Shown piece by piece: positions 14,950 to 58,662 of a stretch of DNA of 64,000 bases. The stretch's first letter is position 1. The number at the start of each line of letters is the position of its first letter. Location of the stretch: contig SCQK01000014.1 of assembly GCA_004321885.1 (NCBI GenBank), forward strand, positions 75,646-139,645, written 5' to 3'. The position numbers and the translations under genes were made by a program. Source of the stretch: Patescibacteria group bacterium. GTDB taxonomy: Bacteria > Patescibacteriota > Patescibacteriia > Magasanikbacterales > GWA2-37-8. Below the pieces are notes generated by a model. The model was not told the origin of the DNA. It made no database searches and was given only the letters and a program-made list of their open reading frames with translations.

Positions 14950-14990
14950 TTGGAGCGGGATACGAGAATCGAACTCGCATCTCTTGCTTG

Positions 14991-15104
14991 CCCCCACACC
15001 AATAATATTGAGCGGACGATGGGAATCGAACCCACGCCTCAACCTTGGGAAGGTCGCATACTACCATTATACTACGCCCGCGTATCGCACTATTGGTGTG
15101 GGGG
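14991..15104. mobile_element. 114 bp MITE-like element with 14 bp perfect inverted repeats (CCCCCACACCAATA...TATTGGTGTGGGGG) carrying a complete tRNA-Gly(CCC); 4 bp direct duplication CTTG at 14987-14990 and 15105-15108
   Basis: Inverted repeats and flanking duplication read directly. Removing the element plus one duplication copy restores an intact tRNA. Confidence 0.7.
15011..15081 (-). tRNA. tRNA-Gly(CCC), the cargo of the inserted element
   Basis: On the minus strand: GCGGGCG-TA-GTATAATGGTAGTAT-G-CGACC-TTCCCAA-GGTTG-AGGC-GTGGGTTCGATTCCCAT-CGTCCGC-T. Confidence 0.8.
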
Positions 15105-15147
15105 CTTGGGAAGCAAGCATACTGCCACTGTACTAATCCCGCGATTG

Positions 15148-23081: not shown

Positions 23082-23807
23082 GTGAAAATATTTATTCGCG
23101 ACGACGCGGACCAAAGCGTGTATAACGAAATTTTTAAGCTGGGCGAATATCGCGCCGCGGACAAAGCCATAAAAAACGCGCGTGAACCCGTTATAGACGT
23201 CGGCGCGCACGCCGGCTTTTTTAGTTTGTATTGCCGCGCGCTCAATCCCCAGGTGAAAATTTTCGCCATTGAACCCGAGCCGGAAAATTTTAAGCAGTTA
23301 CAAAAACACATCGCGGGCAACAATATTAAGGGCGTGGAGCCGGTGCCAGCCGCTTTGGCCGGCGAGACCGGGGAGAGGGAGTTGATAATATCCAAAGACA
23401 ATCATAATCATCGGCTCCGATTACCCCCTCCTCGCCTCCCCCTTATAAAGGGGGAGGACAATTTCCCTCCCCTTGATAAGGGGAGGGCGAGGGAGGGGTA
23501 CTGGGTCGCGGCTTTTTCCTTGGGTGATTTTTGCCGGCGTTATAAAATCAAAAACGTCGCTTTGCTCAAAATGGACATAGAAGGAGGAGAGGAAGAAACG
23601 TTCAAAAGTGCGAGCGCGTCTGATTTGGCTATGGTAAAAAACGTAATTTTGGAGTATCATGGTAATAACTTCGCGCCAATAGAACAAAAATTGCGCGAAA
23701 ACGGTTTTGGAGTACAGAAATTTCCGTCCAAGTTTGATAATAAAATGGGTTTTTTGTTTGCACGCAATAAAAGGTATGTCTCACCAAGCATGGATAGTGG
23801 CGGTTGA
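23082..23807 (+). CDS. FkbM-family methyltransferase with in-frame palindromic insertion
   Basis: VIDVGAHAGFFSL...FAIEPEPENF...LLKMDIEGGEEE is the FkbM signature. The insert is translated as HRLRLPPPRLPLIKGEDNFPPLDKGRAREGYW. GTG start. Confidence 0.55.
   Translation: MKIFIRDDADQSVYNEIFKLGEYRAADKAIKNAREPVIDVGAHAGFFSLYCRALNPQVKIFAIEPEPENFKQLQKHIAGNNIKGVEPVPAALAGETGERELIISKDNHNHRLRLPPPRLPLIKGEDNFPPLDKGRAREGYWVAAFSLGDFCRRYKIKNVALLKMDIEGGEEETFKSASASDLAMVKNVILEYHGNNFAPIEQKLRENGFGVQKFPSKFDNKMGFLFARNKRYVSPSMDSGG
23418..23500. repeat. tandem pair of family-A palindromes (CCTCCCCCTTATAAAGGGGGAGG and CCCTCCCCTTGATAAGGGGAGGG with a CGAGGGAGGGG tail)
   Basis: Lies in frame inside the methyltransferase gene. 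Confidence 0.7.
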
Positions 23808-25101: not shown

Positions 25102-25168
25102 TCGTCAATAGACCCTCTCCTATTAGGAGAGGGATACAGGGTGGGGTTTGTATTAAATAATTTTTTGA

Positions 25169-29034: not shown

Positions 29035-29067
29035 AGTCATTCCCCCGACTTAGTCGGGGGAATCCAG
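29035..29067. repeat. family-B element (CCCCCGACTTAGTCGGGGG core) abutting the start of the 27879-29033 gene
   Basis: agtcattcccccgacttagtcgggggaatccag. Confidence 0.7.
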
Positions 29068-29074
29068 TCGTCAA

Positions 29075-29713
29075 CTAAAACAATATCGCCGCATGCGGCA
29101 TTCTCGCTTTCAAAGTCCTAATCGCGCTCTTGGGAATGGGATTGCCGATAAGGTTCAGCTCGGTCAGATTTTTTAATCCGGCGATGCCGGCGGGAACGGA
29201 CGTTAATTTGTTGTAAGAAAAATCCAAAATTTGCAGTGATTTAATTTCTAAAATTTTTGCCGGGATTGAGCGGTAGGTATTTTTGGCCAGAGATAAATGT
29301 GTGAGTTTTTTCAGGTTGGCGATTTCATCGGGCATGGTGTCAATTTTGTTTTCGCCGTAGTTTAGGGTTTCCAGGTTGCCGAGCTGGCCGATTTCGGCCG
29401 GGATGCCGGTCATATTATTATTGCTCGCGTCCAAGAATTTCAAATTTTGCAAATGGCGGATTTCGGCCGGCAAGGCGCCGGTGAGATTGTTGCCGGACAA
29501 GTCCAAAATTTCCAGCGCGGTTTTGCTAAAAATATCCATGGGTACTTTGGATAAGCCGCGCTCGCTAAGGTCAAGCTGGGTCTGGCTTTGCGGTATGCGC
29601 GGCGCGAAAGTTTTCAGCGCCCCATCCCGCGATTTGGCAAAGTATAAAATACCGGCCGCGGCCACAACGAGCAAAGCAATAATCGCTCCAAGCGTTACTT
29701 TTTTTTGAGGCAT
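29075..29713 (-). CDS. leucine-rich repeat protein, membrane anchored
   Basis: N-terminal TM helix (TLGAIIALLVVAAAGIL), then at least 7 LRRs (LDLSGNNLTGALPAEI, LDASNNNMTGIPAEI and others). Start at the ATG at 29713; the upstream ORF extension is made of palindromic repeats. Confidence 0.7.
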   Translation of the reverse strand: MPQKKVTLGAIIALLVVAAAGILYFAKSRDGALKTFAPRIPQSQTQLDLSERGLSKVPMDIFSKTALEILDLSGNNLTGALPAEIRHLQNLKFLDASNNNMTGIPAEIGQLGNLETLNYGENKIDTMPDEIANLKKLTHLSLAKNTYRSIPAKILEIKSLQILDFSYNKLTSVPAGIAGLKNLTELNLIGNPIPKSAIRTLKARMPHAAILF

Positions 29714-29727
29714 ATATTTGTGGTTCC

Positions 29728-29800
29728 TCTCCCCTTTACAAGGGGGAGGCTTGTCACCACACCAAAAATTTTGGTGTGGTGACAGAGAGGGGGTAATCCT
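29728..29800. repeat. nested palindromes: family-A CCCCTTTACAAGGGGGAGG, then CACCACACCAAAAATTTTGGTGTGGTG (an empty inverted-repeat pair of the tRNA-Gly element family), then AGAGAGGGGG
   Basis: Read directly in the intergenic region between the LRR gene and the SHOCT gene. Confidence 0.65.
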
Positions 29801-29801
29801 C

Positions 29802-30050
29802 TCACATTTCAATATCTTTTCTCATTTCCGCGAATTGCGCTTTGGTTATTTCGCCTTTGACGTATCTCTCTTTGAGAATGGCGAGCGCGTCGGCGCGCGT
29901 TGGGCTAGTTCTGGGCGGTTCGTGGTCGCGGCGCTCGCGCGAACCCTGCACCAGTGAAACAATACCCCATATCAGCGCCATCCAAAAAAGCAGCATAAAC
30001 ACCGGGCCGATAATTCCGTATCCTCCCCAGTTGGTAAATGGGAACATCAT
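29802..30050 (-). CDS. SHOCT-domain small membrane protein
   Basis: TM helix plus a C-terminal LAILKERYVKGEITKAQFAEMRKDI, the SHOCT motif. Confidence 0.5.
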   Translation of the reverse strand: MMFPFTNWGGYGIIGPVFMLLFWMALIWGIVSLVQGSRERRDHEPPRTSPTRADALAILKERYVKGEITKAQFAEMRKDIEM

Positions 30051-30057
30051 AAATTAT

Positions 30058-30092
30058 TGTCATTCCGGTCGCCTGCGGCGGCCGGAATCCAG
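30058..30092. repeat. family-B element tgtcattccggtcgcctgcggcggccggaatccag
   Basis: The same core also occurs at 47453-47487 in the opposite orientation. Confidence 0.7.
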
Positions 30093-30139
30093 TTAATTAG
30101 CTCATTCTATCTTAACAGATTATAATTTTTTGTCCATAA

Positions 30140-30168
30140 TTGACATTTTCGCTATTTTTTTCTATAAT
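30140..30168 (+). promoter_or_regulatory. consensus sigma-70 promoter TTGACA-17 bp-TATAAT
   Basis: ttgaca at 30140-30145 and tataat at 30163-30168. It reads into a family-B element, a tRNA-Asn 5'-half copy, the GIY-YIG gene and tRNA-Asn. Confidence 0.6.
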
Positions 30169-30172
30169 AGTT

Positions 30173-30200
30173 GTCATTCCGGACTTGATCCGGAATCCAG
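30173..30200. repeat. family-B element tgtcattccggacttgatccggaatccag placed 4 nt after the -10 box
   Basis: Read directly. Confidence 0.7.
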
Positions 30201-30218
30201 CTCCTTTGAAAATAAATT

Positions 30219-30262
30219 CCGGGGTAGCGCTCCGCCAGCCGGCGGAGGTAGCGCAGTTGGCT
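30219..30262 (+). repeat. partial copy of the tRNA-Asn 5' half (acceptor plus D-arm) with a 13 bp hairpin inserted in the D-loop
   Basis: TCCGGGGTAGCGC-tccgccAGCcggcgga-GGTAGCGCAG compared with the tRNA TCCGGGGTAGCGCAGCGGTAGCGCAG at 30502-30527. Confidence 0.65.
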
Positions 30263-30511
30263 GTGTATACTGTTTACGCTATTTACAATCAAAAAAACGA
30301 TAAAATTTATATTGGACAAACAAAAGACATGGCCGAACGATTAAGGTTGCATAATGAAAAAATCCTTCTTGGTTATACTTATAGATTTGATGGAAATTGG
30401 AAATTAATTTATAGTGTACAGATCGAGAATAGACAAAAAGCTTTACAAAGAGAGAGACAACTTAAAAGTTTTAGAGGCAGAGAATTTATAAAACAATTTA
30501 TTCCGGGGTAG
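30258..30511 (+). CDS. GIY-YIG nuclease family protein (small, YhbQ/UPF0213-like)
   Basis: VYTVYAIYNQKNDKIYIGQTKDMAERLRLHNE is the GIY-YIG core. A GTG start at 30258 lies inside the tRNA-half copy, and the stop overlaps tRNA-Asn by 10 nt. Confidence 0.6.
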
Positions 30512-30573
30512 CGCAGCGGTAGCGCAGAGGACTGTTAATCCTTTGGTCGTGGGTTCGAATCCCACCCCCGGAG
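30502..30573 (+). tRNA. tRNA-Asn(GTT)
   Basis: TCCGGGG-TA-GCGCAGCGGTAGCGC-A-GAGGA-CTGTTAA-TCCTT-TGGTC-GTGGGTTCGAATCCCAC-CCCCGGA-G. Confidence 0.85.
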
Positions 30574-30578
30574 CAAAA

Positions 30579-30707
30579 ACAAAAATACTGGTAATATCCA
30601 GTATTTTTGCTTTTGCTCGGAATACACGAAAAAATACGAACGGATTTGGGCGAATTTTAGGGCGCGGGCGAAATTCCCTCCCCACACCCCTTCCTTTCGC
30701 CCGCGAA
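30579..30707. repeat. left terminal inverted repeat of the island
   Basis: See the island feature. The outermost hairpin probably also terminates tRNA-Asn. Confidence 0.7.
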
Positions 30708-30883
30708 GCGAAACGGGGGCTCTGGTGGACAAAAACTGCCAAAGAACCCGTAAAAAATGTCGGCCGAACTTTATGTTGGCCAAAAGCAAACTTTTCTCTT
30801 TGATATTGAATTACGATTGTTAAAGTGATATAATCAAGTCAATGAGCGTCCCATTCTTGCTATCTTATGTATACTATCATACT

Positions 30884-31090
30884 ATGGAAGAAAAGAAAAC
30901 AATCGGCGAAAAAATAAAAAAATGGAGAGCGAAGAAAGATTTGACACAAGACGCCTTGGCAAAAAAGGCGGATATTCCATATAGCACGATTGCTAAAATT
31001 GAATCAGATGTTATTACGAGGCCAACAATACAGACAGTGCAAAAGCTGGCCGTTGGTTTGGGTATAACACTTGATGAATTATTAAAATAG
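30884..31090 (+). CDS. XRE-family HTH protein, probable C (controller) protein of the R-M module
   Basis: TIGEKIKKWRAKKDLTQDALAKKADIPYSTIAKIE is an HTH_XRE motif, about 70 aa. An extended -10 TGATATAAT sits at 30826-30834, and the gene lies immediately upstream of the methyltransferase (stop-ATG overlap). The ORF also opens at 30842, a possible leaderless start. Confidence 0.55.
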   Translation: MEEKKTIGEKIKKWRAKKDLTQDALAKKADIPYSTIAKIESDVITRPTIQTVQKLAVGLGITLDELLK

Positions 31091-31091
31091 T

Positions 31092-31973
31092 ATGGTTAAA
31101 GGTCACAAAGTGAAAAATGAAAAAATCGATAAAAAAATAGCTTTTGGTTGGTATGGCGGTAAGTTTAGTCATCTTGACTGGCTTTTGCCGCTGTTGCCGG
31201 AAACCGATCATTTTTGTGAGCCGTTTGGTGGCTCTGCTGCCGTTATCATAAACAGAAATCCTTCTTTAATCGAAACATATAATGATTTAGATGGCGAGGT
31301 AGTTAATTTCTTCAGAGTATTAAGGGAACATCCTAACGATCTTATAAGACAAATTGGGCTTACTCCATTTTCGAGGGAAGAATTCAAATATGCTATTGAA
31401 CACGAAGATGATAAAAATCTTTCAGATATTGAGAGGGCTAGGTCTTTTTTTATCCGCGCAAGGCAGGTTAGGACTGGACTTGCTCAAAAAGCTACTTCTG
31501 GTAGATGGGCAAATTGTAAATTAACTTCCAGAGCCGGAATGTCAGGTGCGGTCTCGAGGTGGTTGGGAAGTGTTGACGGGCTAACAGAGATTGCGGAAAG
31601 GCTTTTACGAATACAAATTGAAAATGCTCCTGCAATTGAAGTTGTAAGGCGATATGATAGCCCACAGACCTTATTTTACTGTGATCCTCCGTATACACAT
31701 GATTCTCGAGGTGATATAAATGCCTATAAATTTGAAATGGACAGGGATGCGCATGTCGAACTGGCCGAAACACTAAAACAGGTTAAGGGGTTAGTCGCTA
31801 TATCGGGTTACGACTCTCCCCTAATGAACGAGCTGTATCAAGGATGGAAAAAAATCGCTGGGCCAGTAAAAAATGCAAATTCTATACAACAACCTAGACA
31901 AGAAATTTTATGGGTTAATTATAATATTAATGATAAATCTTTATGGAAAAAGCAGCAAAGATCCTTGATATAA
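31092..31973 (+). CDS. N6-adenine DNA methyltransferase, Dam/D12 class
   Basis: FxGxG motif EPFGGSAAV and catalytic DPPY (LFYCDPPYTHDS). Confidence 0.8.
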   Translation: MVKGHKVKNEKIDKKIAFGWYGGKFSHLDWLLPLLPETDHFCEPFGGSAAVIINRNPSLIETYNDLDGEVVNFFRVLREHPNDLIRQIGLTPFSREEFKYAIEHEDDKNLSDIERARSFFIRARQVRTGLAQKATSGRWANCKLTSRAGMSGAVSRWLGSVDGLTEIAERLLRIQIENAPAIEVVRRYDSPQTLFYCDPPYTHDSRGDINAYKFEMDRDAHVELAETLKQVKGLVAISGYDSPLMNELYQGWKKIAGPVKNANSIQQPRQEILWVNYNINDKSLWKKQQRSLI

Positions 31974-33064
31974 TTTTGAAAAAAACTAATGGGCATCTAG
32001 AAAAACCTTTTATAAAAAATAGGGAGATTTTGCGGAAAATAGAATTTATTTCTCATAATATTCAAAATCGAGCCGGCGTCCGCCTTATTATGTCTTGCTT
32101 ACTGGCGAAACTTGACGATCCAAAAGTTGATGTAAGAAAACCTTATACGGAGATTGGCAGTCGTGATAGTTTTTCGGGCAGAACATATGACGAGGCCTAT
32201 GTCGGCAGTTTTATCACTAAACATCACTTGCCGTGTAATCCAACAACAGCGTTTTTGACGCCAGCTCTACGTAATAGAAATATTGTACTTACGCCAAAAG
32301 TAAATTTAGTCGGCAGGCCACCAGAAATTTATCAATACGTTCTCGACCTCCTAGAATTAGTATTTAAAGGATTTCTTGCCCCAGCCATTCTGCTTGCGGA
32401 AATAATGCGACAACTTGTTCTTTTACGAGATGAAAATCAAAAACGTATAAAATCTTTGTTAAAGAATCTCGGGAAAAATGGTAGTGTGCCTCTTTCGGGT
32501 GAAGACATAATAAAACTTATTGAGCAACATTTAAATTGCAAAGGAGCCAGCAGACTTCCCGTACTTATCGTGGCCGCTGCTTACAACACTATTGGAAATT
32601 TCATCCAAGAAAAAGTATTACCTATCTTTTCTCACAATTCTGCAGATAAACAAACTGGTGCGCTCGGCGATATACAAATTACGTTAATTAATGACGAGAA
32701 TGTAGTAACTAGTTATGAGATGAAGATGAAGAAGGTCACAAAGGACGACATTGATATCGCTCTGCAAAAAATTTCGGGAGTTAAGTACAAAATAGATAAT
32801 TATATTTTTATAACGACGGATATAATAGATGATTCGGTAAAAGAATATGCGAAATCACTTTATGAGCAAACCGGCGGAATAGAGATAGTTGTCTTAGATT
32901 GTATTAGTTTTCTTAGGCATTTTATTCATTTATTCCACCGCTTCAGATTGCCATATCTTGAAGAGTATCAAAAGTTGGTGATGGGTGAAGCAGACAGCGC
33001 GGTCAGTCAGCCCCTTAAAGAGGCATTTCTTGCTCTTCGACAGGCAACAGAAAGCGCGAATTAA
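31943..33064 (+). CDS. putative type II restriction endonuclease (PD-(D/E)xK-like)
   Basis: Overlaps the methyltransferase gene by 31 nt. GDIQITLINDENVVTSYEMK fits a D...ExK nuclease motif. Its position in a C-M-R array supports the call. Confidence 0.45.
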   Translation: MEKAAKILDIILKKTNGHLEKPFIKNREILRKIEFISHNIQNRAGVRLIMSCLLAKLDDPKVDVRKPYTEIGSRDSFSGRTYDEAYVGSFITKHHLPCNPTTAFLTPALRNRNIVLTPKVNLVGRPPEIYQYVLDLLELVFKGFLAPAILLAEIMRQLVLLRDENQKRIKSLLKNLGKNGSVPLSGEDIIKLIEQHLNCKGASRLPVLIVAAAYNTIGNFIQEKVLPIFSHNSADKQTGALGDIQITLINDENVVTSYEMKMKKVTKDDIDIALQKISGVKYKIDNYIFITTDIIDDSVKEYAKSLYEQTGGIEIVVLDCISFLRHFIHLFHRFRLPYLEEYQKLVMGEADSAVSQPLKEAFLALRQATESAN

Positions 33065-33145
33065 TGCAATAAAATAGTAAAAATGCAACCTTTTTCGGTG
33101 TGCGACGTTATATTATTGGGAGCTAAATATGACGATTATTAAAAA

Positions 33146-33802
33146 GTGTTTATCTTTATGGATATTGAAGCCGAAAAAGAACAAATCGTGAAGGCCCAAA
33201 GTAATATCAAGGAGTTTGCGCCTTTATTTGATGAATATTACCCCCAAATACTTAAATATTTAATAGGGCGTATCCGCAGTGTGGAAATTGCCCAGGATAT
33301 TGCATCTGTTACATTCTTGAAAGCCTTAGAGAATATAAAAAAATTTAACTGTCGGGGGATTAGCATATCATCGTGGCTGTACCGAATAGCTACGAACGAG
33401 GTCACTACATATTTTAGAAAAAATAAAACCCTTTCACTCGATGAGATAAGGGCATGTGAAAATTTTGATCCGCCCGCTATCGGCAACCCGTACATTGAAA
33501 TTGTCCAGGCGCAGGAAAAAATTGAAAATGATAAAAAATTTTTGAATCTACAAAATGAGATTCTAAAATTACATATAAATTATCAAGAAGTCATAATGTT
33601 GCGATATTTCGAGAAAAAACAAATAAATGAGATAGCAGAAATTTTAAATAAAAGCGAGGGGACGATTAAATCTCTCCTCCATCGAGGTTTGAAAAAATTA
33701 AAAAAAAATTTTCAACTACACAACAGTGACGCCAGAACGCAACCTTTTCAAAATAAAAACGTTCTAAATATAGAACAGGTACTAGTACCCATAAAATTAT
33801 GA
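33146..33802 (+). CDS. ECF-type sigma-70 family sigma factor encoded on the island
   Basis: Region 2 (FDEYYPQILKYLIGRIRSVEIAQDIASVTFLKALENIKKF...WLYRIATNEV) and region 4 (QEVIMLRYFEKKQINEIAEILNKSEGTIKSLLHRGLKKL). Confidence 0.8.
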   Translation: MFIFMDIEAEKEQIVKAQSNIKEFAPLFDEYYPQILKYLIGRIRSVEIAQDIASVTFLKALENIKKFNCRGISISSWLYRIATNEVTTYFRKNKTLSLDEIRACENFDPPAIGNPYIEIVQAQEKIENDKKFLNLQNEILKLHINYQEVIMLRYFEKKQINEIAEILNKSEGTIKSLLHRGLKKLKKNFQLHNSDARTQPFQNKNVLNIEQVLVPIKL

Positions 33803-34041
33803 ATGACCTACAGGAGTTAGAAAAAATGTTAGAGGAGATCGAGGTTCCGTCTGTGGACTTAAATATAAATAAGGAGTTGTTGAAGAGTTACCTATTTAGA
33901 AATGAGCGGGTTGAATTTGAGAGCAGCAAACAAGATAACTCCATATTTGCCCCGCAGTTTGAATTTTTACCTTGTCCGTCATTTACGTATGATTATTTAA
34001 TTAATGATTTTAATTCAACTACATATGTCCTTAGTTATTAA
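33799..34041 (+). CDS. hypothetical small protein (positioned like an anti-sigma factor or adaptor)
   Basis: 80 aa. It overlaps the sigma gene stop and the next gene's start. No motif was recognised. Confidence 0.3.
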   Translation: MNDLQELEKMLEEIEVPSVDLNINKELLKSYLFRNERVEFESSKQDNSIFAPQFEFLPCPSFTYDYLINDFNSTTYVLSY

Positions 34042-34987
34042 TGTAACCACACCCGAAGGAATTGTGTTAGCAGCTGATAGTCGTCAAAGCTACCGCAACC
34101 AAAAAGGCGCAGCCCGTATAGGCAGCGATAACGCTTCGAAACTGTTTAAATTAAACGACCGGATAGCTGTTGCAGCTACAGGCATGGCCTTTTTACCTGA
34201 AAAAGGAATGCTTAAAAATATAAGTAAATTTATAGAACAATTTAAAAAAATTGAAATTGAAAAAATAGAAAATATATCAGTTAAGGAAACGGCAGAAAAA
34301 ATTCATGAATATTTCAAAAGTATATACAAAGTAGAAGACCAGATAAGGGCAATTGAGCAGCAAATTACAAATGATATCGCAAAAAACGGGGGTAAAATAT
34401 TGAGAACAGACGCTAAAAAAAATATAGTTATTGTAGAGTTTGAAGATGCAAATGGGAAAAAAGGTGTTGCCAACGTAGTTCTGGAGCCCTTGAATTTCAT
34501 GGTGGCTGGTTTTAATAGCAATTTCGATTCGCACGAGGTTTACACGTGTAGAATACCGGGGGGGATAGAATTAAAAAGAAATAGTAGCGTGGATAATAAA
34601 GAGTATGGCGCCTCGTGGGAAGGGCAAAATGATGTGGTAGCGCGAATTGTCTTGGGTTTTGATCCTAGGATAGGGAATATAAAATTTGTACAAGAAGCAG
34701 CGGAAAAAATTGGGAAGGATCAAATTAATGAACAGCTTAGAAATTTAGAATACGCAATACAATGGGGCACCATGACTTTGCAAGATGCTATCGACTTTTG
34801 TGTGTTAATTATAAAAACAACCTCAGCCATTCAAAGATTTTCGGATGGCATTAAAGCTGATCCTGGTGCAATCCCTGGCGTGGGCGGCTCCATCGATGTG
34901 GTGGTCATCAGACCAGAAGAGGGGTTTAATTGGGTAAGTAAAAAGAAGTTATCTATCAATGAAAATTGTTCAGAAATAAATTTTTAA
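34025..34987 (+). CDS. proteasome beta / HslV-like Ntn-hydrolase with C-terminal extension
   Basis: VINV|TTPEGIVLAADSRQSY...ASKLFKLNDRIAVAATGMA matches the N-terminal Thr nucleophile and GxxxD/R pattern of the proteasome beta/HslV family. The start could also be the ATG at 34004. Confidence 0.5.
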   Translation: MSLVINVTTPEGIVLAADSRQSYRNQKGAARIGSDNASKLFKLNDRIAVAATGMAFLPEKGMLKNISKFIEQFKKIEIEKIENISVKETAEKIHEYFKSIYKVEDQIRAIEQQITNDIAKNGGKILRTDAKKNIVIVEFEDANGKKGVANVVLEPLNFMVAGFNSNFDSHEVYTCRIPGGIELKRNSSVDNKEYGASWEGQNDVVARIVLGFDPRIGNIKFVQEAAEKIGKDQINEQLRNLEYAIQWGTMTLQDAIDFCVLIIKTTSAIQRFSDGIKADPGAIPGVGGSIDVVVIRPEEGFNWVSKKKLSINENCSEINF

Positions 34988-35011
34988 TAAATTATTTTTA
35001 ACTAATAGTTT

Positions 35012-35656
35012 ATGAAAAAACCTCTTTATATAATGCTCCATCACTCGGCTGTTTCATACGACAAAAATCCAGATCAATTTGATGCAAATAATAATTACCA
35101 TAAAGCACAGTGGAATTTTAAAGGTTCCCTTGGTTTTTATCTTGGTTACAATTACGAAATATCTAAAACCGGCCTGACACGACAAGCCCGAGCAGACGGT
35201 GAAGTTACGGCAGCATGCTATCAAAAAGATATGAACGATGGTAGGTGTATACATATTTGTATGGATGGCCACTTCGATCAAGAAAAACCAACGCCAGAAC
35301 AAATAGAGGCGTTAAGAAAATTGCTAAAACAAAAATTCGAGGAGCACAATATCAAAAGAGAGAACTTAATTTTTCATAGGGATTACGCCCCTAAAACCTG
35401 TCCGGGGTCTAATTTAGACATAAAAAATATTCGCGATCTTGCCACACCGGAAGGCAATGAATTGTACGCAGCCGCATTGACGCTTATGAAAGAGAATAAT
35501 TCACCAGCTATTTACTTTTTCGGTTTTGATAATATGTGGCACGGACTTGGGGATATGGATATTTTAAAATCATTAAAAGGAAACTATAATCCAGTAGAAA
35601 TAATGAAAGTAGAAAATCTCCCTGATAATATTTCATTTTCAATAGGCAAACAATAA
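35012..35656 (+). CDS. N-acetylmuramoyl-L-alanine amidase, PGRP/amidase_2 type (endolysin-like)
   Basis: MLHHSA...H...GYNYEI...HICMDGHFD...IFHRDYAPKTCPG matches the zinc-binding pattern of T7-lysozyme-type amidases. Confidence 0.75.
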   Translation: MKKPLYIMLHHSAVSYDKNPDQFDANNNYHKAQWNFKGSLGFYLGYNYEISKTGLTRQARADGEVTAACYQKDMNDGRCIHICMDGHFDQEKPTPEQIEALRKLLKQKFEEHNIKRENLIFHRDYAPKTCPGSNLDIKNIRDLATPEGNELYAAALTLMKENNSPAIYFFGFDNMWHGLGDMDILKSLKGNYNPVEIMKVENLPDNISFSIGKQ

Positions 35657-35777
35657 AAAGCTGCGTTTCCGCCAAAGCCGAGCGAAGCTCGGTATCCCGC
35701 CGCAACAAGTAGCGTCGGGATGAAAAACTGGAAATCGTCATTCGTCGGAGATCCCTCCGCCCAAGGCGGGCAGGCAC

Positions 35778-35905
35778 CGCGGGCGGAAGGAAGGGGTGTG
35801 GGGAGGGAATTCCGCCCGCGCCCTAAAATTCGCCCAAATCCGTTCGTATCTTTTCATAAGTCCCGAGCAAAAGTAAAAATACTGGTAATATCCAGTATTT
35901 TTTGT
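35778..35905. repeat. right terminal inverted repeat of the island
   Basis: Reverse complement of the left inverted repeat. Confidence 0.7.
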
Positions 35906-35928
35906 TACTATGTTAGTAAATAAAATTT

Positions 35929-36552
35929 ATGCTTGGCCTGACAAAATCCGAACTGAAAATTTTAAAAAGACTCAACACGCCCATAAAAATTCAGAATTTT
36001 TTGGATACCTTTCCGATAAATTGGGAAAAGAAAGGCGAGACATACATGTCGCCCGGCCGGTCGCTTGGCGCGCGCAAGATACATTGTTTTGAGGGCGCGC
36101 TTTTGGCGGCCGCGGCTTTGTGGATAAACGGCGAACAGCCGTTGCTTTTAGACCTAAAAGCCAAAGGCGACTTTGACCATGTGGTGGCGCTGTACAAACG
36201 AAACGGCTATTGGGGGGCGATAAGCAAAACCAATCACGCCACTCTGCGTTGGCGCGACCCGGTGTATAAAACCCTGCGTGAGCTGGCCGTGTCGTATTTC
36301 CACGAATACTTTGACAACAAGTTTTACAAAAAACGCCTGGTCAGTTTTTCCCGGCCGTTTAACTTAAAAAAATACGGCGCCAAGTGGATGGCGGCCGAAG
36401 AAGACCTGCACGAGCTGGTGGATGCTTTGGACCACTGCCCGCACGAAAAAATCTGCCCGCCCAAAAACGCGAAATATATCCGCCGGGCGGACAAAATGGA
36501 GCGTCGCGCCGGCCGGCTGATTGAGTGGAAAAAATCTCATCCGCGTACTTGA
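35929..36552 (+). CDS. hypothetical protein
   Basis: 207 aa ORF. No confident motif; KIHCFEGALLAAAAL could be a cysteine-hydrolase-like site. Confidence 0.4.
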   Translation: MLGLTKSELKILKRLNTPIKIQNFLDTFPINWEKKGETYMSPGRSLGARKIHCFEGALLAAAALWINGEQPLLLDLKAKGDFDHVVALYKRNGYWGAISKTNHATLRWRDPVYKTLRELAVSYFHEYFDNKFYKKRLVSFSRPFNLKKYGAKWMAAEEDLHELVDALDHCPHEKICPPKNAKYIRRADKMERRAGRLIEWKKSHPRT

Positions 36553-42873: not shown

Positions 42874-42902
42874 TGGATTCCGGCTCGGGGGCCGGAATGA
42901 CA
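42874..42902. repeat. family-B element (inverted orientation) tggattccggctcgggggccggaatgaca overlapping the start of the PAP2 gene
   Basis: Read directly. The ATG at 42897 lies inside the GGAATGACA arm. Confidence 0.65.
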
Positions 42903-43448: not shown

Positions 43449-43537
43449 TGATACCCCTCCCTTTAACCCTCCCCTTAATAAGGGGAGGGAGGGGTGGGGT
43501 TTGCTTTTTTAGGTTCGCGAGTATATTATAAAAATGT

Positions 43538-46508: not shown

Positions 46509-47063
46509 TTAGAGCCTGTCCCGAACTTGTTTCGGGAGGGAGGATAGAGGAGGGAGTATGTGTATTTTTCTCTTGTTCCCTCCCGCGTATTCAATTCTGA
46601 CGGTTATTATTTTCGGCCCTTGGCCGATATTTTTCAAAAGCTCTTTTATTTTCTCCGGCCACTCAATCGCGCAAATCGTATCCGGCCTGCCCAAATAATC
46701 CAGCGCGCCGATTTCCACAAGTTCGTGCTCATTTTTTAGCCGGTAGGTATCTATATGGACGAATTTTTGTGTCCCCCTGCCCCCACACCAAAATTTTTGG
46801 TGTGGGGGCCTGCCCGAGGGGGACTTTGAGGGGGGTGGGAGCAAGTACACATTCATCAACGCGAACGTCGGACTGGTAATTTTTTCTTTGACGCCCAAGC
46901 CGGCGGCAATGCCTTTCACCAATGCAGTTTTGCCCGCGCCCAGTTCGCCGTAAAGCAATAAAATATCGCCGCCGCGCAATTTTCGCGCCAAAGCCGCGCC
47001 AAACGCAAATGTTTCTTTTTCGTTTTTCGTGATAATTTTTTGATTGTTTTGACGGGTTGACAT
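46509..47063 (-). CDS. tsaE: tRNA threonylcarbamoyladenosine biosynthesis protein TsaE with a 23 aa in-frame palindromic insertion
   Basis: LLYGELGAGKTALVKGIAAGLG...SPTFALMNVY...HIDTYRL. Start at MSTRQNN; the ORF extends upstream to 47138. The insert LLPPPSKSPSGRPPHQKFWCGGRGTQ lies between the two conserved blocks. Confidence 0.7.
   Translation of the reverse strand: MSTRQNNQKIITKNEKETFAFGAALARKLRGGDILLLYGELGAGKTALVKGIAAGLGVKEKITSPTFALMNVYLLPPPSKSPSGRPPHQKFWCGGRGTQKFVHIDTYRLKNEHELVEIGALDYLGRPDTICAIEWPEKIKELLKNIGQGPKIITVRIEYAGGNKRKIHILPPLSSLPKQVRDRL
46771..46843. repeat. composite palindromic insert: outer GTCCCCCTG...CGAGGGGGAC, enclosing CCCCCACACCAAAATTTTTGGTGTGGGGG, plus a GAGGGGGGTGGGAGC tail
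   Basis: The inner palindrome equals the two 14 bp inverted repeats of the tRNA-Gly-carrying element joined head to head. The outer part matches the grpE insert at 53838-53888. Confidence 0.7.
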
Positions 47064-47270
47064 AGAAAAGCGATTACCTGTAATATATAGATGGTGGGCG
47101 CGGAGCGGCGGAAAAAATGTTCTACAACTTTTTTTCATAGGTTCGCCAATATCTGTTTGGCCCTTGGGTCAAACGTGCGGCTTACCACCTACTATCACGG
47201 GACACGTGACGCCGCTTGCGCGCTTAACCCTTTTTTGATTTTACAGTAAAACTGAAAAAAAGCAACGGGT

Positions 47271-47452: not shown

Positions 47453-47487
47453 CTGGATTCCGGTCGCCTGCGACGACCGGAATGACA
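47453..47487. repeat. family-B element (inverted) ctggattccggtcgcctgcgacgaccggaatgaca
   Basis: Same core as the element at 30058-30092. Confidence 0.7.
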
Positions 47488-51216: not shown

Positions 51217-51244
51217 TGTCATTCCCGCGAAAGCGGGAATCCAG
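51217..51244. repeat. family-B element tgtcattcccgcgaaagcgggaatccag, directly after a TATAAT at 51211-51216 and 6 nt before the ATG at 51250
   Basis: Read directly. Confidence 0.7.
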
Positions 51245-51822: not shown

Positions 51823-51863
51823 TGTCATTCTGGCTCGGGAGCCAGAATCCATCATTCAATTCA

Positions 51864-52879: not shown

Positions 52880-52913
52880 CTGGATTCCCCCGTACTTAGT
52901 CGGGGGAATGACA
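52880..52913. repeat. family-B element (inverted) ctggattcccccgtacttagtcgggggaatgaca ending 12 nt before the hrcA ATG
   Basis: Read directly. Confidence 0.7.
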
Positions 52914-53614: not shown

Positions 53615-54121
53615 ATGGCTGAAGAAGAAAAAAAAGAGATAGAGGAAAAGGAAGAGGGAGCGCCTTGTGAAAAGTGTGAAGAGCACAAAGCCAATTGGAA
53701 GAGGGCGTTGGCCGATTACAAGAATTTGCAAAACGAGATCGCCCGATGCAAATCAGATTGGGCGAAAATGAGCGAGGCGCAGATTTTGCAGGAGTTTATT
53801 CCGGTGTATGATAATCTGAAACGGGGGCTGGCGGTTTCTCTCCCCCTGCTCGAGGGGGAGAAGCCCGAAGAACAGAGGGGGTGGGAGCAGTTGAAACAGG
53901 GGATAGAGTACGTGAAAAAGCAATTTGGAGAGGTCTTGAAAGCGCACGGAGTGGAGGAAATAAAAACCATCGGCGAACAGTTTGACCCGCGTTGGCACGA
54001 AGCCGTGGGCGAGGAAGAAGCCGATGGCGCCGAGGCGGGCGCGATTGTTCGCGAGGTGGATTCGGGATATAAAGTGGGCGACAGGGTCATAAAACCGGCG
54101 AAAGTAATCGTGGCGAAATAG
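53615..54121 (+). CDS. grpE: nucleotide exchange factor GrpE with in-frame palindromic insert
   Basis: WKRALADYKNLQNE...EFIPVYDNLKRGLAV...VLKAHGVEEI...VREVDSGYKVGDRVIKPAKV. The insert SLPLLEGEKPEEQRGWEQ is encoded by the palindrome at 53838-53888. Confidence 0.8.
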   Translation: MAEEEKKEIEEKEEGAPCEKCEEHKANWKRALADYKNLQNEIARCKSDWAKMSEAQILQEFIPVYDNLKRGLAVSLPLLEGEKPEEQRGWEQLKQGIEYVKKQFGEVLKAHGVEEIKTIGEQFDPRWHEAVGEEEADGAEAGAIVREVDSGYKVGDRVIKPAKVIVAK

Positions 54122-54228: not shown

Positions 54229-54323
54229 TAAAGAAAAAAGAAAATAAATTTTCTCCCTTAATTAGGGGGAGAACGCCAAACAGTTCCCTCCCCTAAAAGG
54301 GGAGGGTGTAAAACAATGAAATT

Positions 54324-57977: not shown

Positions 57978-58113
57978 GGCTCCATAGTTGCGAAGCACTA
58001 TGGAGCTCAAATGTTGGTCAGCAATTCGGCTCCACAGCCCCGACTGGGTCGGGGACTATGGAGCCAGCCATAGGATAACACTGGATTCCCCCGACTAAGT
58101 CGGGGGAATGACA
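57978..58113. repeat. array of three palindromic elements (a C-type with alternative core at 57978-58006, a C-type at 58028-58065, and a B-type at 58081-58113) filling the dnaJ / ECF sigma intergenic region
   Basis: Read directly. The B-type ends 2 nt before the ATG at 58116. Confidence 0.7.
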
Positions 58114-58613: not shown

Positions 58614-58662
58614 ATACCCCTCCCGCGCCCTCCCCTTAAAAAAGGGGAGGGGCAAACTAAAT

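What the first reader, a model, noticed from the sequence alone, without database searches (positions are those of the whole stretch)
46771..46843. Empty versions of the tRNA-Gly element: CCCCCACACCAAAATTTTTGGTGTGGGGG and CACCACACCAAAAATTTTGGTGTGGTG are the same inverted repeats without cargo
The 29 bp palindromes at 46781-46809 and 29756-29784 are the two 14 bp terminal inverted repeats from 14991-15104 joined head to head. This argues that the inverted-repeat pair is an independently propagating unit, a miniature palindromic element, and that the tRNA-carrying copy is a cargo-bearing derivative. Both solo copies are themselves nested inside other palindromic elements. One of them is in frame inside tsaE, where it translates to PHQKFWCGG. 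The same peptide appears in the N-terminal extensions of ORFs at 29713-29812.
Basis: seen in the sequence. Interest (0 to 1): 0.6.

Follow-up and report, generated by a model that had tools for sequence, protein, structure and literature searches.

The report
Tiny palindromic jumping elements, GIY-YIG-linked
The two short palindromes are the smallest members of a large, apparently undescribed family of insertion elements found across many uncultivated bacterial phyla; they can sit in frame inside essential proteins, can carry a whole tRNA gene, and in their largest form carry only a tiny GIY-YIG nuclease gene.

Summary
The palindromes are real, though the coordinates are 1-4 nt off: 46780-46808 and 29752-29784. 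They share a 12-nt arm, (C/A)CCCACACCAA, with the repeats around tRNA-Gly at 14991-15104, far beyond chance. A 4-bp direct repeat flanks 76 of 242 copies (16 expected). That includes CCTG at the tsaE copy and CTTG at the tRNA copy. The space between the arms holds nothing, about 100 nt of non-coding DNA, a tRNA, or an 84-aa GIY-YIG nuclease gene that fills it exactly. All nine GIY-YIG homologues chosen by protein similarity alone have these arms at the gene. One such element (TAAT duplication) has an orthologous empty site. Copies lie in frame in tsaE here and in GuaA, PutA, DegT, MiaA, Lgt and a P-type ATPase elsewhere. All 13 tRNA-bearing copies sit inside a co-oriented tRNA gene, of the same isoacceptor wherever the outer gene is still readable. 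That rule is unexplained. That the nuclease drives mobility is inferred, not shown.

The parts
46780..46808 (.). Empty element, copy 1: CCCCCACACCAAAA-T-TTTTGGTGTGGGGG, 29 bp. It adds 33 nt with its duplication, which is 11 codons (RPPHQKFWCGG region) in tsaE.
   Evidence: sequence and statistics; translation; DNA fold, z = -7.9
46776..46779 (.). Left copy of the 4-bp target-site duplication CCTG
46809..46812 (.). Right copy of the 4-bp target-site duplication CCTG
46771..46824 (.). Older hairpin GTCCCCCT-GCCCG-AGGGGGAC. It is restored exactly when the 29-bp element and one CCTG copy are removed; the element sits in its loop.
46509..47138 (-). tsaE ORF (probable start at MSTRQ, 47063). It carries 23 extra residues between SPTFALMNVY and VHIDTYRL.
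29752..29784 (.). Empty element, copy 2, variant arms: TGTCACCACACCAAAA-A-TTTTGGTGTGGTGACA. Intergenic, no flanking duplication, no T tract.
14991..15104 (-). tRNA-bearing element: arms 14991-15002 and 15093-15104 enclose tRNA-Gly(CCC) at 15010-15081.
14987..14990 (.). Left copy of the 4-bp duplication CTTG flanking the tRNA-bearing element
15105..15108 (.). Right copy of the 4-bp duplication CTTG flanking the tRNA-bearing element
14951..15142 (-). Outer tRNA-Gly(CCC) gene with encoded CCA, split in its anticodon loop by the element. ARAGORN calls it once the insert is removed.
30257..30511 (+). GIY-YIG nuclease gene, a divergent relative (30% identity) of the arm-associated family. It lies 484 nt from copy 2, is wedged between a 5' fragment of tRNA-Asn and the complete tRNA-Asn, and has no CCCCCACACCAA arms of its own.

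Best explanation
The two palindromes are minimal, non-autonomous members of a mobile-element family. The family is defined by 12-nt terminal inverted repeats, 5'-(C/T)CCCCACACCAA...TTGGTGTGGGG(G/A)-3', and inserts with a 4-bp target-site duplication. The preferred targets are TWWA-like or CTTG-like.

Four size classes share the arms:
1. 25-33-bp 'empties', as at 46780 and 29752.
2. Elements of about 95-125 bp carrying unrelated non-coding cargo.
3. Elements carrying one tRNA gene, as at 14991-15104.
4. Elements of about 290 bp whose interior is exactly one 84-85-aa GIY-YIG nuclease gene.

I take class 4 to be the autonomous form. On this reading its nuclease cuts at the arms and at targets, and host repair or ligation completes the move. 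The smaller forms would then use that nuclease in trans.

The commonest empty is 29 bp. With its 4-bp duplication it adds 33 nt and has no stop codon in any frame, so it can persist inside genes as an 11-residue loop insertion. That is the case in tsaE. Copy 2 is a diverged intergenic copy.

Shown: family membership, the duplication, in-frame residence, the physical tie to GIY-YIG genes, and one filled versus empty orthologous site.

Inferred: that the nuclease is the mobilising enzyme, how it would work chemically, and which size class gave rise to which.
For: Window:
- Three elements and six arms, far above chance.
- Duplications CCTG and CTTG.
- Removing copy 1 plus one CCTG restores a perfect 8-bp hairpin.

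Family size:
- 118 genome stretches (122 palindromes) and 120 metagenome stretches (124 elements), across many phyla.

Target-site duplication:
- Identical flanking 4-mers in 76 of 242 elements against 15.9 expected from the flank composition.
- Inverted flanks are not enriched: 24 against 19.1.

Propagation within genomes:
- The same asymmetric loops recur at different loci of one MAG, in both orientations, for example in JACQEJ01 and DYHX01.

In-frame copies in real domains elsewhere:
- GuaA, PutA, DegT, Fer4/ETF, AI-2E transporter, P-type ATPase, MiaA, Lgt, Wzy.

GIY-YIG link:
- 11 of 20 GIY-YIG genes in the palindrome-selected loci lie within 60 nt of an element.
- L211 has arm-ATG...stop-arm with flanking repeats.
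- Nine homologues picked by protein similarity alone all have the arms at the gene.
- Four of those nine are exact arm-ORF-arm units: L249, L250, L252, L254.
- The L124/L178 cargo is the 3' end of a GIY-YIG ORF, a deletion derivative.
- Catalytic residues Y5, Y16, R26, H30 and E62 are invariant. The proteins are 70-100% identical across phyla.

Filled versus empty site, at the Omnitrophota pstA-pstB junction:
- Unoccupied (L263): ATGGTAAAATTTG.
- Filled (L250): ATGGTAAT[arm-GIY-arm]TAATATTT.
- Solo arm left behind: L257, L259, L260, L262.
Against: - No strand-transfer enzyme is known in the GIY-YIG superfamily, and no biochemistry is available here.
- Most cargos, about 115 of 120, show no trace of a GIY-YIG gene, so they are not simple deletion derivatives.
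- In five of the nine independent loci the nuclease gene lies beside a complete element rather than between its arms. This also fits a homing-endonuclease gene that merely targets the arms.
- Only 2 of 5 arm-GIY-arm units have a perfect flanking duplication.
- About two thirds of all copies lack a perfect duplication.
- It is unclear how a 25-30-bp duplex could be handled as a transposon.
- In this window the only GIY-YIG gene is a 30%-identical relative without these arms. The rest of the source genome could not be retrieved.
- Copy 2 has no duplication.
Confidence: 0.7

Rival explanations
1. The palindrome is the recognition or homing site of the GIY-YIG endonuclease, not its vehicle. The nuclease gene is a free-standing homing-endonuclease gene that lands in or beside the palindrome. 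Other cargos, tRNAs included, are copied in during repair of breaks at the palindrome. The arms themselves are spread by some other agent.
For: - The gene is found inside the arms, immediately outside a complete element, and downstream of one.
- Homologous GIY-plus-element units have conserved arms and flanks but completely different cargo, as if the cargo were exchanged.
- A symmetric site suits a small dimeric nuclease.
- The window's own GIY-YIG gene sits in a tRNA gene in the manner of phage Seg-type endonucleases (the comparison is from my own knowledge).
Against: - It does not explain how empties reach new loci with 4-bp duplications.
- Arms of 12-16 bp are short for homology-directed copying.
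- Cargo is not a copy of the element's own flanks, except for the tRNAs.
- The ORF fills the arm-to-arm interval to the nucleotide in four independent loci, as in insertion sequences.
Confidence: 0.2
2. These are conventional MITEs mobilised by a DDE transposase. The best candidate is an IS1380/piggyBac-like enzyme, because those elements end in CC(C)...(G)GG and duplicate 4 bp (TTAA for piggyBac). The GIY-YIG gene would be passenger cargo.
For: - Termini CCCCC...GGGGG.
- 4-bp duplications of TTAA, TATA, TTTA and TAAA.
- The properties of the IS1380 and piggyBac families are from my own knowledge, not tested here.
Against: - No transposase gene is bounded by these arms in about 1.6 Mb of element-containing loci.
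- No recurrent transposase family appears among 879 long ORFs.
- The only protein-coding cargo ever seen is the GIY-YIG gene.
- The link from the protein side is 9 of 9.
Confidence: 0.1
3. The hairpins are host-encoded functional signals, such as terminators, REP-like mRNA stabilisers or protein-binding sites. On this view selection keeps them similar, and they are not mobile.
For: - Some copies lie 5-30 nt downstream of tRNA genes (L039, L101, L106).
- The hairpins are very stable.
- In tRNA-bearing copies the stem is extended by G.U pairs only in the sense transcript.
Against: - No T tract follows copy 2, and no terminator-like site was scored there.
- Many copies lie in frame inside conserved protein domains.
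- Flanking 4-bp duplications are enriched, and there is a filled versus empty orthologous site.
- Identical 12-nt arms occur in unrelated phyla.
- There is no Rfam match.
Confidence: 0.04
4. The elements are removed at the RNA level, like introns, so that insertions in tRNAs and mRNAs are harmless.
For: - Insertions occur in tRNA D, anticodon and T loops.
- A long closing helix resembles processing stems.
Against: - Genic copies keep the reading frame and are free of stop codons, which would be unnecessary if they were spliced out.
- None of about 230 empty or non-tRNA elements lies in a tRNA gene.
- Several outer tRNAs have lost their anticodon arm or are otherwise degraded.
- There is no bulge-helix-bulge geometry and no group I or group II signal.
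Confidence: 0.03

Closest known systems
Bacterial MITEs (for example Correia/CREE elements of Neisseria)
   Same: Short, non-coding, with terminal inverted repeats and a short target-site duplication. Multi-copy, fold into hairpins, and occur in and between genes.
   Different: The empties are only 25-33 bp, far below any MITE I know of. The interior is hypervariable rather than family-specific. The matching 'full-length' element encodes a GIY-YIG nuclease, not a DDE transposase. The same 12-nt arms are shared across many phyla.
Rickettsia palindromic elements (RPE)
   Same: Palindromic insertions that persist in frame inside protein-coding genes and are translated as extra loops.
   Different: RPEs are about 100-150 bp, restricted to Rickettsia, and have no known encoded enzyme. 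The sequences are unrelated. Here the insert is typically 11 codons.
REP elements and their RAYT (TnpA-REP, Y1 HUH) transposases
   Same: Hairpins of 20-40 nt at high copy number, thought to be mobilised in trans by a small dedicated nuclease-type enzyme whose gene is flanked by the repeats.
   Different: No GTAG or CGTC tag. REPs are extragenic and make no target duplication. The associated enzyme here is GIY-YIG, not HUH.
Free-standing GIY-YIG homing endonuclease genes (T4 Seg proteins, I-TevI) and UPF0213/YhbQ-type mini GIY-YIG proteins (PDB 1ZG2, 1YWL)
   Same: The same catalytic domain with conserved Tyr, Tyr, Arg, His and Glu. The gene is inserted between or within conserved genes (pstA/pstB, glyA 3' end, tRNA-Asn). 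It is spread horizontally.
   Different: The protein is only 84 aa and has no separate DNA-binding domain. The gene is bounded by terminal inverted repeats and a 4-bp duplication. It is accompanied by hundreds of gene-less derivatives. None of these is a feature of known homing endonuclease genes.
piggyBac / IS1380 cut-and-paste elements
   Same: CCC...GGG-type termini and a 4-bp AT-rich target duplication that includes TTAA.
   Different: No DDE or DDD transposase was found. The resemblance rests on memory of those families and on end and duplication features only.
tRNA-gene-targeting integrative elements that restore the disrupted tRNA
   Same: Insertion into a tRNA gene is compensated by sequence that the element brings with it.
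   Different: Here a complete second tRNA gene, about 75 nt, sits between 12-nt arms, nested inside the old gene at the D, anticodon or T loop. No integrase is present and the whole element is only 100-125 bp.

Membership tests
MITE (non-autonomous TIR element) | Terminal inverted repeats at both ends | tested here: met
   12-nt arms, perfect in copy 1 and in the tRNA copy, with a variant in copy 2. The same arms occur in more than 240 elements.
MITE (non-autonomous TIR element) | Target-site duplication of fixed length | tested here: met
   4-bp direct repeats in 76 of 242 elements against 15.9 expected. CCTG and CTTG in the window. TAAT at L250, with an orthologous empty site at L263. Copy 2 has none.
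MITE (non-autonomous TIR element) | Multiple copies per genome | tested here: inconclusive
   Three copies in this 64-kb window. Five to seven or more sampled copies in single MAGs, DYHX01 and JACQEJ01. The whole source genome could not be retrieved.
MITE (non-autonomous TIR element) | An autonomous relative with the same ends that encodes a transposase | tested here: inconclusive
   Relatives with the same ends encode a GIY-YIG nuclease: L211, L249, L250, L252, L254. No recognised transposase was found.
REP/RAYT system | Conserved GTAG or CGTC tetranucleotide at the hairpin foot; extragenic location; no target duplication | tested here: not met
   The flanks are TWWA- or CTTG-type duplications. 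Copies lie inside ORFs.
Rickettsia palindromic elements | In-frame residence in protein-coding genes | tested here: met
   tsaE and nine further proteins. This is a functional resemblance only. Sequence, size and host differ, so these are not members of the RPE family.
GIY-YIG nuclease superfamily (the encoded protein of the 290-bp form) | GIY-YIG catalytic domain with conserved Tyr...Tyr-x-Gly...Arg...His...Glu | tested here: met
   Pfam PF01541, E = 5e-18. Invariant Y5, Y16, G18, R26, H30, E62. Nearest solved structures are UPF0213 proteins 1ZG2 and 1YWL.
Homing endonuclease gene (free-standing) | Separate DNA-binding domain; cleavage of the allele that lacks the gene; spread by homologous repair without target duplication | tested here: inconclusive
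   The protein has 84 aa and shows only the catalytic domain. A target duplication is present at L250. Cleavage specificity cannot be tested with these tools.
IS1380 / piggyBac-type element | DDE/DDD transposase gene between CC...GG ends, with a 4-5-bp duplication | tested here: not met
   The ends and the duplication fit, but no such gene lies between or near arms in about 1.6 Mb.
Intrinsic terminator | GC-rich hairpin followed by a T tract | tested here: not met
   No terminator-like site at 29752-29784 on either strand. Copy 1 is inside a gene.
tRNA intron (bulge-helix-bulge or group I) | Splicing-competent structure; the outer tRNA stays functional | tested here: not met
   No Rfam intron hit. 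The junction has a 7 x 2 internal loop rather than 3-4-3. Several outer tRNAs are degraded. RNA data are not available.

The most novel reading that the evidence does not exclude
The arm-GIY-arm unit, about 290 bp, is an autonomous transposable element whose only protein is an 84-aa GIY-YIG nuclease. That would make it the smallest self-mobilising DNA element known and the first prokaryotic DNA transposon family driven by a GIY-YIG enzyme. Its derivatives would include 25-33-bp in-frame 'peptide-inserting' palindromes. They would also include tRNA cassettes that home, by a cargo-dependent (homology-guided) route, into the resident tRNA gene of the same isoacceptor and replace it.
Probability: 0.4. 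Interest if true: 0.92.

Novelty: new variant of a known kind. Interest (0 to 1): 0.8.

Why it matters
If the reading is right, a single 12-nt arm sequence marks a mobile-element family that has spread through much of the uncultivated bacterial world, including CPR/Patescibacteria, Omnitrophota and Margulisbacteria. The consequences would be these:

1. **Protein evolution.** It would explain odd peptide insertions such as PPHQKFWCGG in otherwise conserved essential proteins, and spurious N-terminal ORF extensions in MAG annotations.
2. **Assembly.** It could contribute to contig breaks: several copies lie within about 40-430 bp of contig ends, though this was not tested against a control.
3. 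**tRNA exchange.** It would provide a route for horizontal replacement of tRNA genes.
4. **Transposon biology.** It would add a nuclease class, GIY-YIG, to the short list of enzymes that drive DNA transposition, in an element of only about 290 bp.
5. **Tools.** A nuclease of 84 aa that recognises a defined 12-nt arm or hairpin would also be of practical interest.

Even on the most conservative reading, the family is a useful annotation feature. It is also a marker of horizontal exchange among ultra-small bacteria.

Tried and rejected
- **Hairpin loops as the general target.** Both window copies sit in hairpin loops, but across 73 duplication-flanked elements the rebuilt empty sites are no more hairpin-like than control sites with the same 4-mer (mean stem 3.4 against 3.3). 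Rejected.
- **Cargo as a templated copy of the element's own target site** (break repair from an uninterrupted allele). Only tRNA cargos resemble their flanks. Rejected as a general rule.
- **Selection alone as the reason tRNA cargos sit in same-type tRNA genes.**
  - No empty or non-tRNA element lies in a tRNA gene, and no tRNA-bearing element lies outside one.
  - Several outer genes are still intact, so the events are young.
  - Selection alone is therefore insufficient, and the question is left unexplained.
- **Search for a transposase.**
  - Arm pairs 140-5000 bp apart and all-against-all clustering of 879 ORFs of at least 250 aa gave only housekeeping families.
  - The GIY-YIG gene emerged only from the 200-300-bp arm pairs.
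- **Known RNA families.** Rfam at gathering threshold on the window and at E-value threshold on 13 loci gave only tRNAs and spurious miRNA-hairpin hits.
- **Literature.** Searches by sequence string, by MITE/CPR terms, by nested or disrupted tRNA terms, and by GIY-YIG plus transposon, UPF0213 or YhbQ terms found nothing describing this family.
- **Viral origin.** Only 2 hits in IMG/VR.
- **Retrieving the rest of the source contig.** The identical TsaE is listed from a 159,463-bp NCBI contig, but the look-up found no record.
- **First pattern attempts.** These failed through my own errors: wrong spacer length, and a pattern starting with an ambiguity code.
Full report
**1. What is in the window**

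The window comes from a Patescibacteria (CPR) MAG. Its TsaE is identical to an NCBI protein on a 159,463-bp contig.

Copy 1 is CCCCCACACCAAAATTTTTGGTGTGGGGG at 46780-46808. Copy 2 is TGTCACCACACCAAAA-A-TTTTGGTGTGGTGACA at 29752-29784. The repeats around tRNA-Gly(CCC) are CCCCCACACCAATA (14991-15004) and TATTGGTGTGGGGG (15091-15104).

The shared core is CCCCACACCAA, or CACCACACCAA in copy 2. With at most one mismatch it occurs six times, against 0.9 expected and with 0 of 100 shuffles reaching six. Those six hits are exactly the six arms.

**2. Anatomy of the three copies**

Copy 1 is flanked by CCTG on both sides (46776-46779 and 46809-46812). Removing the 29 bp plus one CCTG restores a perfect hairpin, GTCCCCCT-GCCCG-AGGGGGAC. 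It lies in tsaE between SPTFALMNVY and VHIDTYRL.

Relative to the solved T. maritima TsaE, 23 residues are extra at that point. The same spot varies in length by 0-50 residues among CPR homologues. The element plus its duplication is 33 nt, which is 11 codons, and has no stop codon in any frame.

Copy 2 is intergenic. It lies between the stop of a SHOCT-domain gene and the likely start of an LRR protein. It has no duplication and no T tract, and it lies beside another hairpin rather than inside one.

The tRNA copy is flanked by CTTG on both sides. It sits in the anticodon loop of a second, otherwise intact tRNA-Gly(CCC) gene with encoded CCA (14951-15142, minus strand). ARAGORN recovers that outer gene once the insert is removed.

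**3. Census outside the window**

I scanned one genome per species (GTDB) for CCACACCAA-N(0-30)-TTGGTGTGGKG. They come from Patescibacteria of all classes, Omnitrophota, Saganbacteria/Margulisbacteria/WOR-1, Elusimicrobia, Planctomycetota, a Nitrospira MAG and 'Deltaproteobacteria' MAGs.

A metagenome scan for the same arms 72-102 nt apart also hit its limit, at 120 stretches holding 124 elements. IMG/VR gave only two hits.

Among elements not used to select the loci, sizes are bimodal. The inter-arm gap is either 30 nt or less, or about 80-112 nt. Within single MAGs the same asymmetric loop recurs at different loci in both orientations. That is the pattern of copying, not of convergence.

**4. 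Insertion signature**

The four bases outside the C/G that closes the arms are identical on the two sides in 76 of 242 elements. The flank composition predicts 15.9. Inverted flanks are not enriched, at 24 against 19.1.

Preferred 4-mers, read outward from the arm, rank as follows: TAAA > TTTA > TGAA > TTAA and TATA > TCAA > CAAG. The window's CTTG and CCTG recur in other Parcubacteria, for example in L038. Hairpin loops are not a general target.

**5. Residence inside genes**

Copies lie in frame inside Pfam-confirmed domains of GuaA, PutA, DegT, a Fer4-ETF protein, an AI-2E transporter, a P-type ATPase, MiaA and Lgt. In the translated ATPase ORF, one search shows a second, degenerate in-frame copy (LPPHQKFGGGG). 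A cargo-bearing copy adds 34 residues to a Wzy-type protein. The tsaE case is therefore typical of the family.

**6. What the arms enclose**

- **Non-coding cargo.** Most 95-125-bp elements carry unrelated non-coding sequence in several sub-families. No Rfam family matches.
- **tRNA cargo.**
  - Twelve metagenome elements plus the window's carry a complete tRNA set tightly between the arms.
  - All 13 sit inside remains of another tRNA gene, in the same orientation wherever that can be read.
  - In 10 of them the outer gene is still readable and is of the same isoacceptor as the inner one. In L141, L184 and L217 it is too degraded to assign.
  - The insertion point is the D loop (three times at the same spot), the anticodon loop or the T loop. 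In two cases the element replaces the anticodon arm.
  - Ten of the 13 are C34 isoacceptors.
  - None of about 230 empty or non-tRNA elements lies in a tRNA gene.
  - Inner and outer genes differ by compensatory stem changes, so the inner gene is an immigrant allele, not a local copy.
- **Nuclease cargo.** Arm pairs 200-300 bp apart enclose a small GIY-YIG nuclease gene: L211, L155.

**7. The GIY-YIG link**

In the palindrome-selected loci, 11 of 20 GIY-YIG genes lie within 60 nt of an element. I then tested the link from the protein side.

The 84-aa protein has hundreds of homologues at 70-100% identity in Margulisbacteria, WOR-1, Omnitrophica, Cloacimonetes and Moranbacteria. I fetched the contigs of nine of them, chosen for contig length only. 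All nine loci carry the arms at the gene.

| Arrangement | Loci |
|---|---|
| Exact arm-ORF-arm unit | L249, L250, L252, L254 |
| One to three complete elements abutting the ORF | L241, L242, L248, L251, L255 |

An example of the exact form is L249: ...TTTACCCCCACACCAATT-ATG...TAA-TTGGTGTGGGGGTGAA.

The protein is a bare catalytic domain (Pfam PF01541). Tyr5, Tyr16, Gly18, Arg26, His30 and Glu62 are invariant. The nearest solved structures are UPF0213 proteins of unknown function.

One cargo (L124/L178) is the last 30 codons of such a gene, which makes it a deletion derivative. Most cargos show no such trace.

**8. A filled site and its empty counterpart**

In Omnitrophota the pstA-pstB junction occurs in four states.

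| State | Loci | Sequence or feature |
|---|---|---|
| Unoccupied | L263 | ATGGTAAAATTTGAAACC |
| Filled | L250 | ATGGTAAT[arm-GIY-arm]TAATATTTAAT; TAAT duplicated; pstB now starts at a GTG inside the right arm |
| Solo right arm | L257, L259, L260, L262 | Translated as MVTIGVGVKFE... of PstB |
| Unresolved | L258, L261 | A run of N at the same point |

This is direct comparative evidence that the nuclease-bearing form inserts with a 4-bp duplication and then decays.

**9. Interpretation**

The empties are minimal members of a TIR-bounded mobile family. The most economical model is an IS-like unit of about 290 bp that encodes only a GIY-YIG nuclease, with gene-less derivatives mobilised in trans.

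Three steps are inferred, not shown:
- that the nuclease recognises the arms;
- that it makes the 4-nt staggered cuts;
- that host ligation or repair finishes the reaction.

The main rival is that the nuclease gene is a homing endonuclease gene that uses the palindrome as its landing site. That would explain why the gene sits beside complete elements in five of the nine loci, and why cargo differs completely between otherwise homologous units. It does not explain how empties colonise new sites.

No such gene was found. The terminator, REP and intron readings each fail defining tests.

**10. What remains unexplained**

- Why tRNA cargos are found only inside tRNA genes, of the same isoacceptor wherever the outer gene can still be read, and always co-oriented.
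  - Selection alone does not suffice, because several outer genes are still intact while no tRNA cassette is seen elsewhere.
  - A cargo-dependent (homology-guided) route is implied but untested.
- How a 25-30-bp duplex can be mobilised at all.
- Where the non-GIY cargos come from.

**11. Novelty**

Eight literature searches found no description of this family. They covered the arm sequence, MITEs in CPR, nested tRNA genes and GIY-YIG transposons. The library does not cover most subscription journals, so prior description cannot be excluded.

Noticed in passing
window 14951-15142 (minus strand): A complete tRNA-Gly(CCC) gene is nested, in the same orientation, in the anticodon loop of another tRNA-Gly(CCC) gene. 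The same tRNA-in-tRNA arrangement recurs for Val, Arg (three anticodons), Thr, Gln and Pro (two anticodons) in 9 further metagenome loci. Three more tRNA-bearing elements (inner Glu, Ala, Arg-CCG) sit in outer tRNA remnants too degraded to assign. Ten of the 13 inner tRNAs are C34 isoacceptors.
   Followed up: partly
window 30140-30574: A perfect sigma-70 consensus (TTGACA-17-TATAAT, 30140-30168) precedes a 5' fragment of tRNA-Asn (30217-30260, itself interrupted by an 18-nt hairpin). A GIY-YIG nuclease ORF follows, with its TTG start in the D-loop remnant and its last codons formed by the 5' end of the complete tRNA-Asn (30502-30574). It looks like a nuclease gene inserted into the tRNA's D loop that brought its own replacement 5' part.
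   Followed up: partly
window 18762-18784, 23435-23487, 25113-25133, 43467-43489, 53839-53861, 54286-54306, 58628-58651, 29726-29749: A second hairpin family, CC(C/T)TCCCC(T)T-loop-A(A)GGGGA(G/A)GG, occurs at least eight times. The hairpin GTCCCCCT...AGGGGGAC that hosts copy 1 in tsaE may be a relative.
   Followed up: no
window 29039-29063, 58085-58109 (also 18879-18895, 52884-52909): A third hairpin family, ATTCCCCCGACT-N-AGTCGGGGGAAT, has two perfect 12-bp-stem copies.
   Followed up: no
window 30071-30095, 30176-30196, 42877-42898, 47457-47483, 51221-51240, 51827-51848: A fourth family, (GTC)ATTCCGG...CCGGAAT(CCAG). Two copies lie just upstream of the window's GIY-YIG gene. Different GIY-YIG sub-families may pair with different hairpin families.
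   Followed up: no
alignment A1 (TsaE homologues), insertion point between SPTFxLMNVY and VHIDTYRL: Many CPR TsaE proteins carry unrelated insertions of 10-50 residues at exactly this loop, while others have none. The site looks like a recurrent sink for small insertions.
   Followed up: partly
L019, L181, L190, L219 and many Omnitrophota/Planctomycetota loci: In these phyla the element is almost always embedded in the centre of another conserved palindrome, ...GTCTGCGAAT-TAAA-TTCAGCC.... Either the arms are longer in this sub-family or insertion is recurrently nested.
   Followed up: no
L136, L142, L145, L147, L157, L164, L167, L195, L200, L224, L228, L231 (cargo): One cargo sub-family shares a conserved, probably structured, centre: AAGCCG-NN-AGGCGGCTTCGCCTT. 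Several of these loci also hold a GIY-YIG gene of a different sub-family, some nearby (L136/L228, about 60 nt) and some a few kb away.
   Followed up: no
L211 2150-2510: An arm-GIY-arm unit with the CACCACACCAA arm variant, as in window copy 2, starts inside the 3' end of a tRNA gene (...CCCTCGACACCA). An 11-nt repeat, CTCGACACCAC, flanks it. The arm sequence CCCCCAC-A-CCA itself resembles a tRNA acceptor 3' strand plus ACCA.
   Followed up: no
window 30001-36000: A low-GC block (36-39% against about 50% elsewhere) begins at the GIY-YIG/tRNA-Asn locus. It may be horizontally acquired.
   Followed up: no
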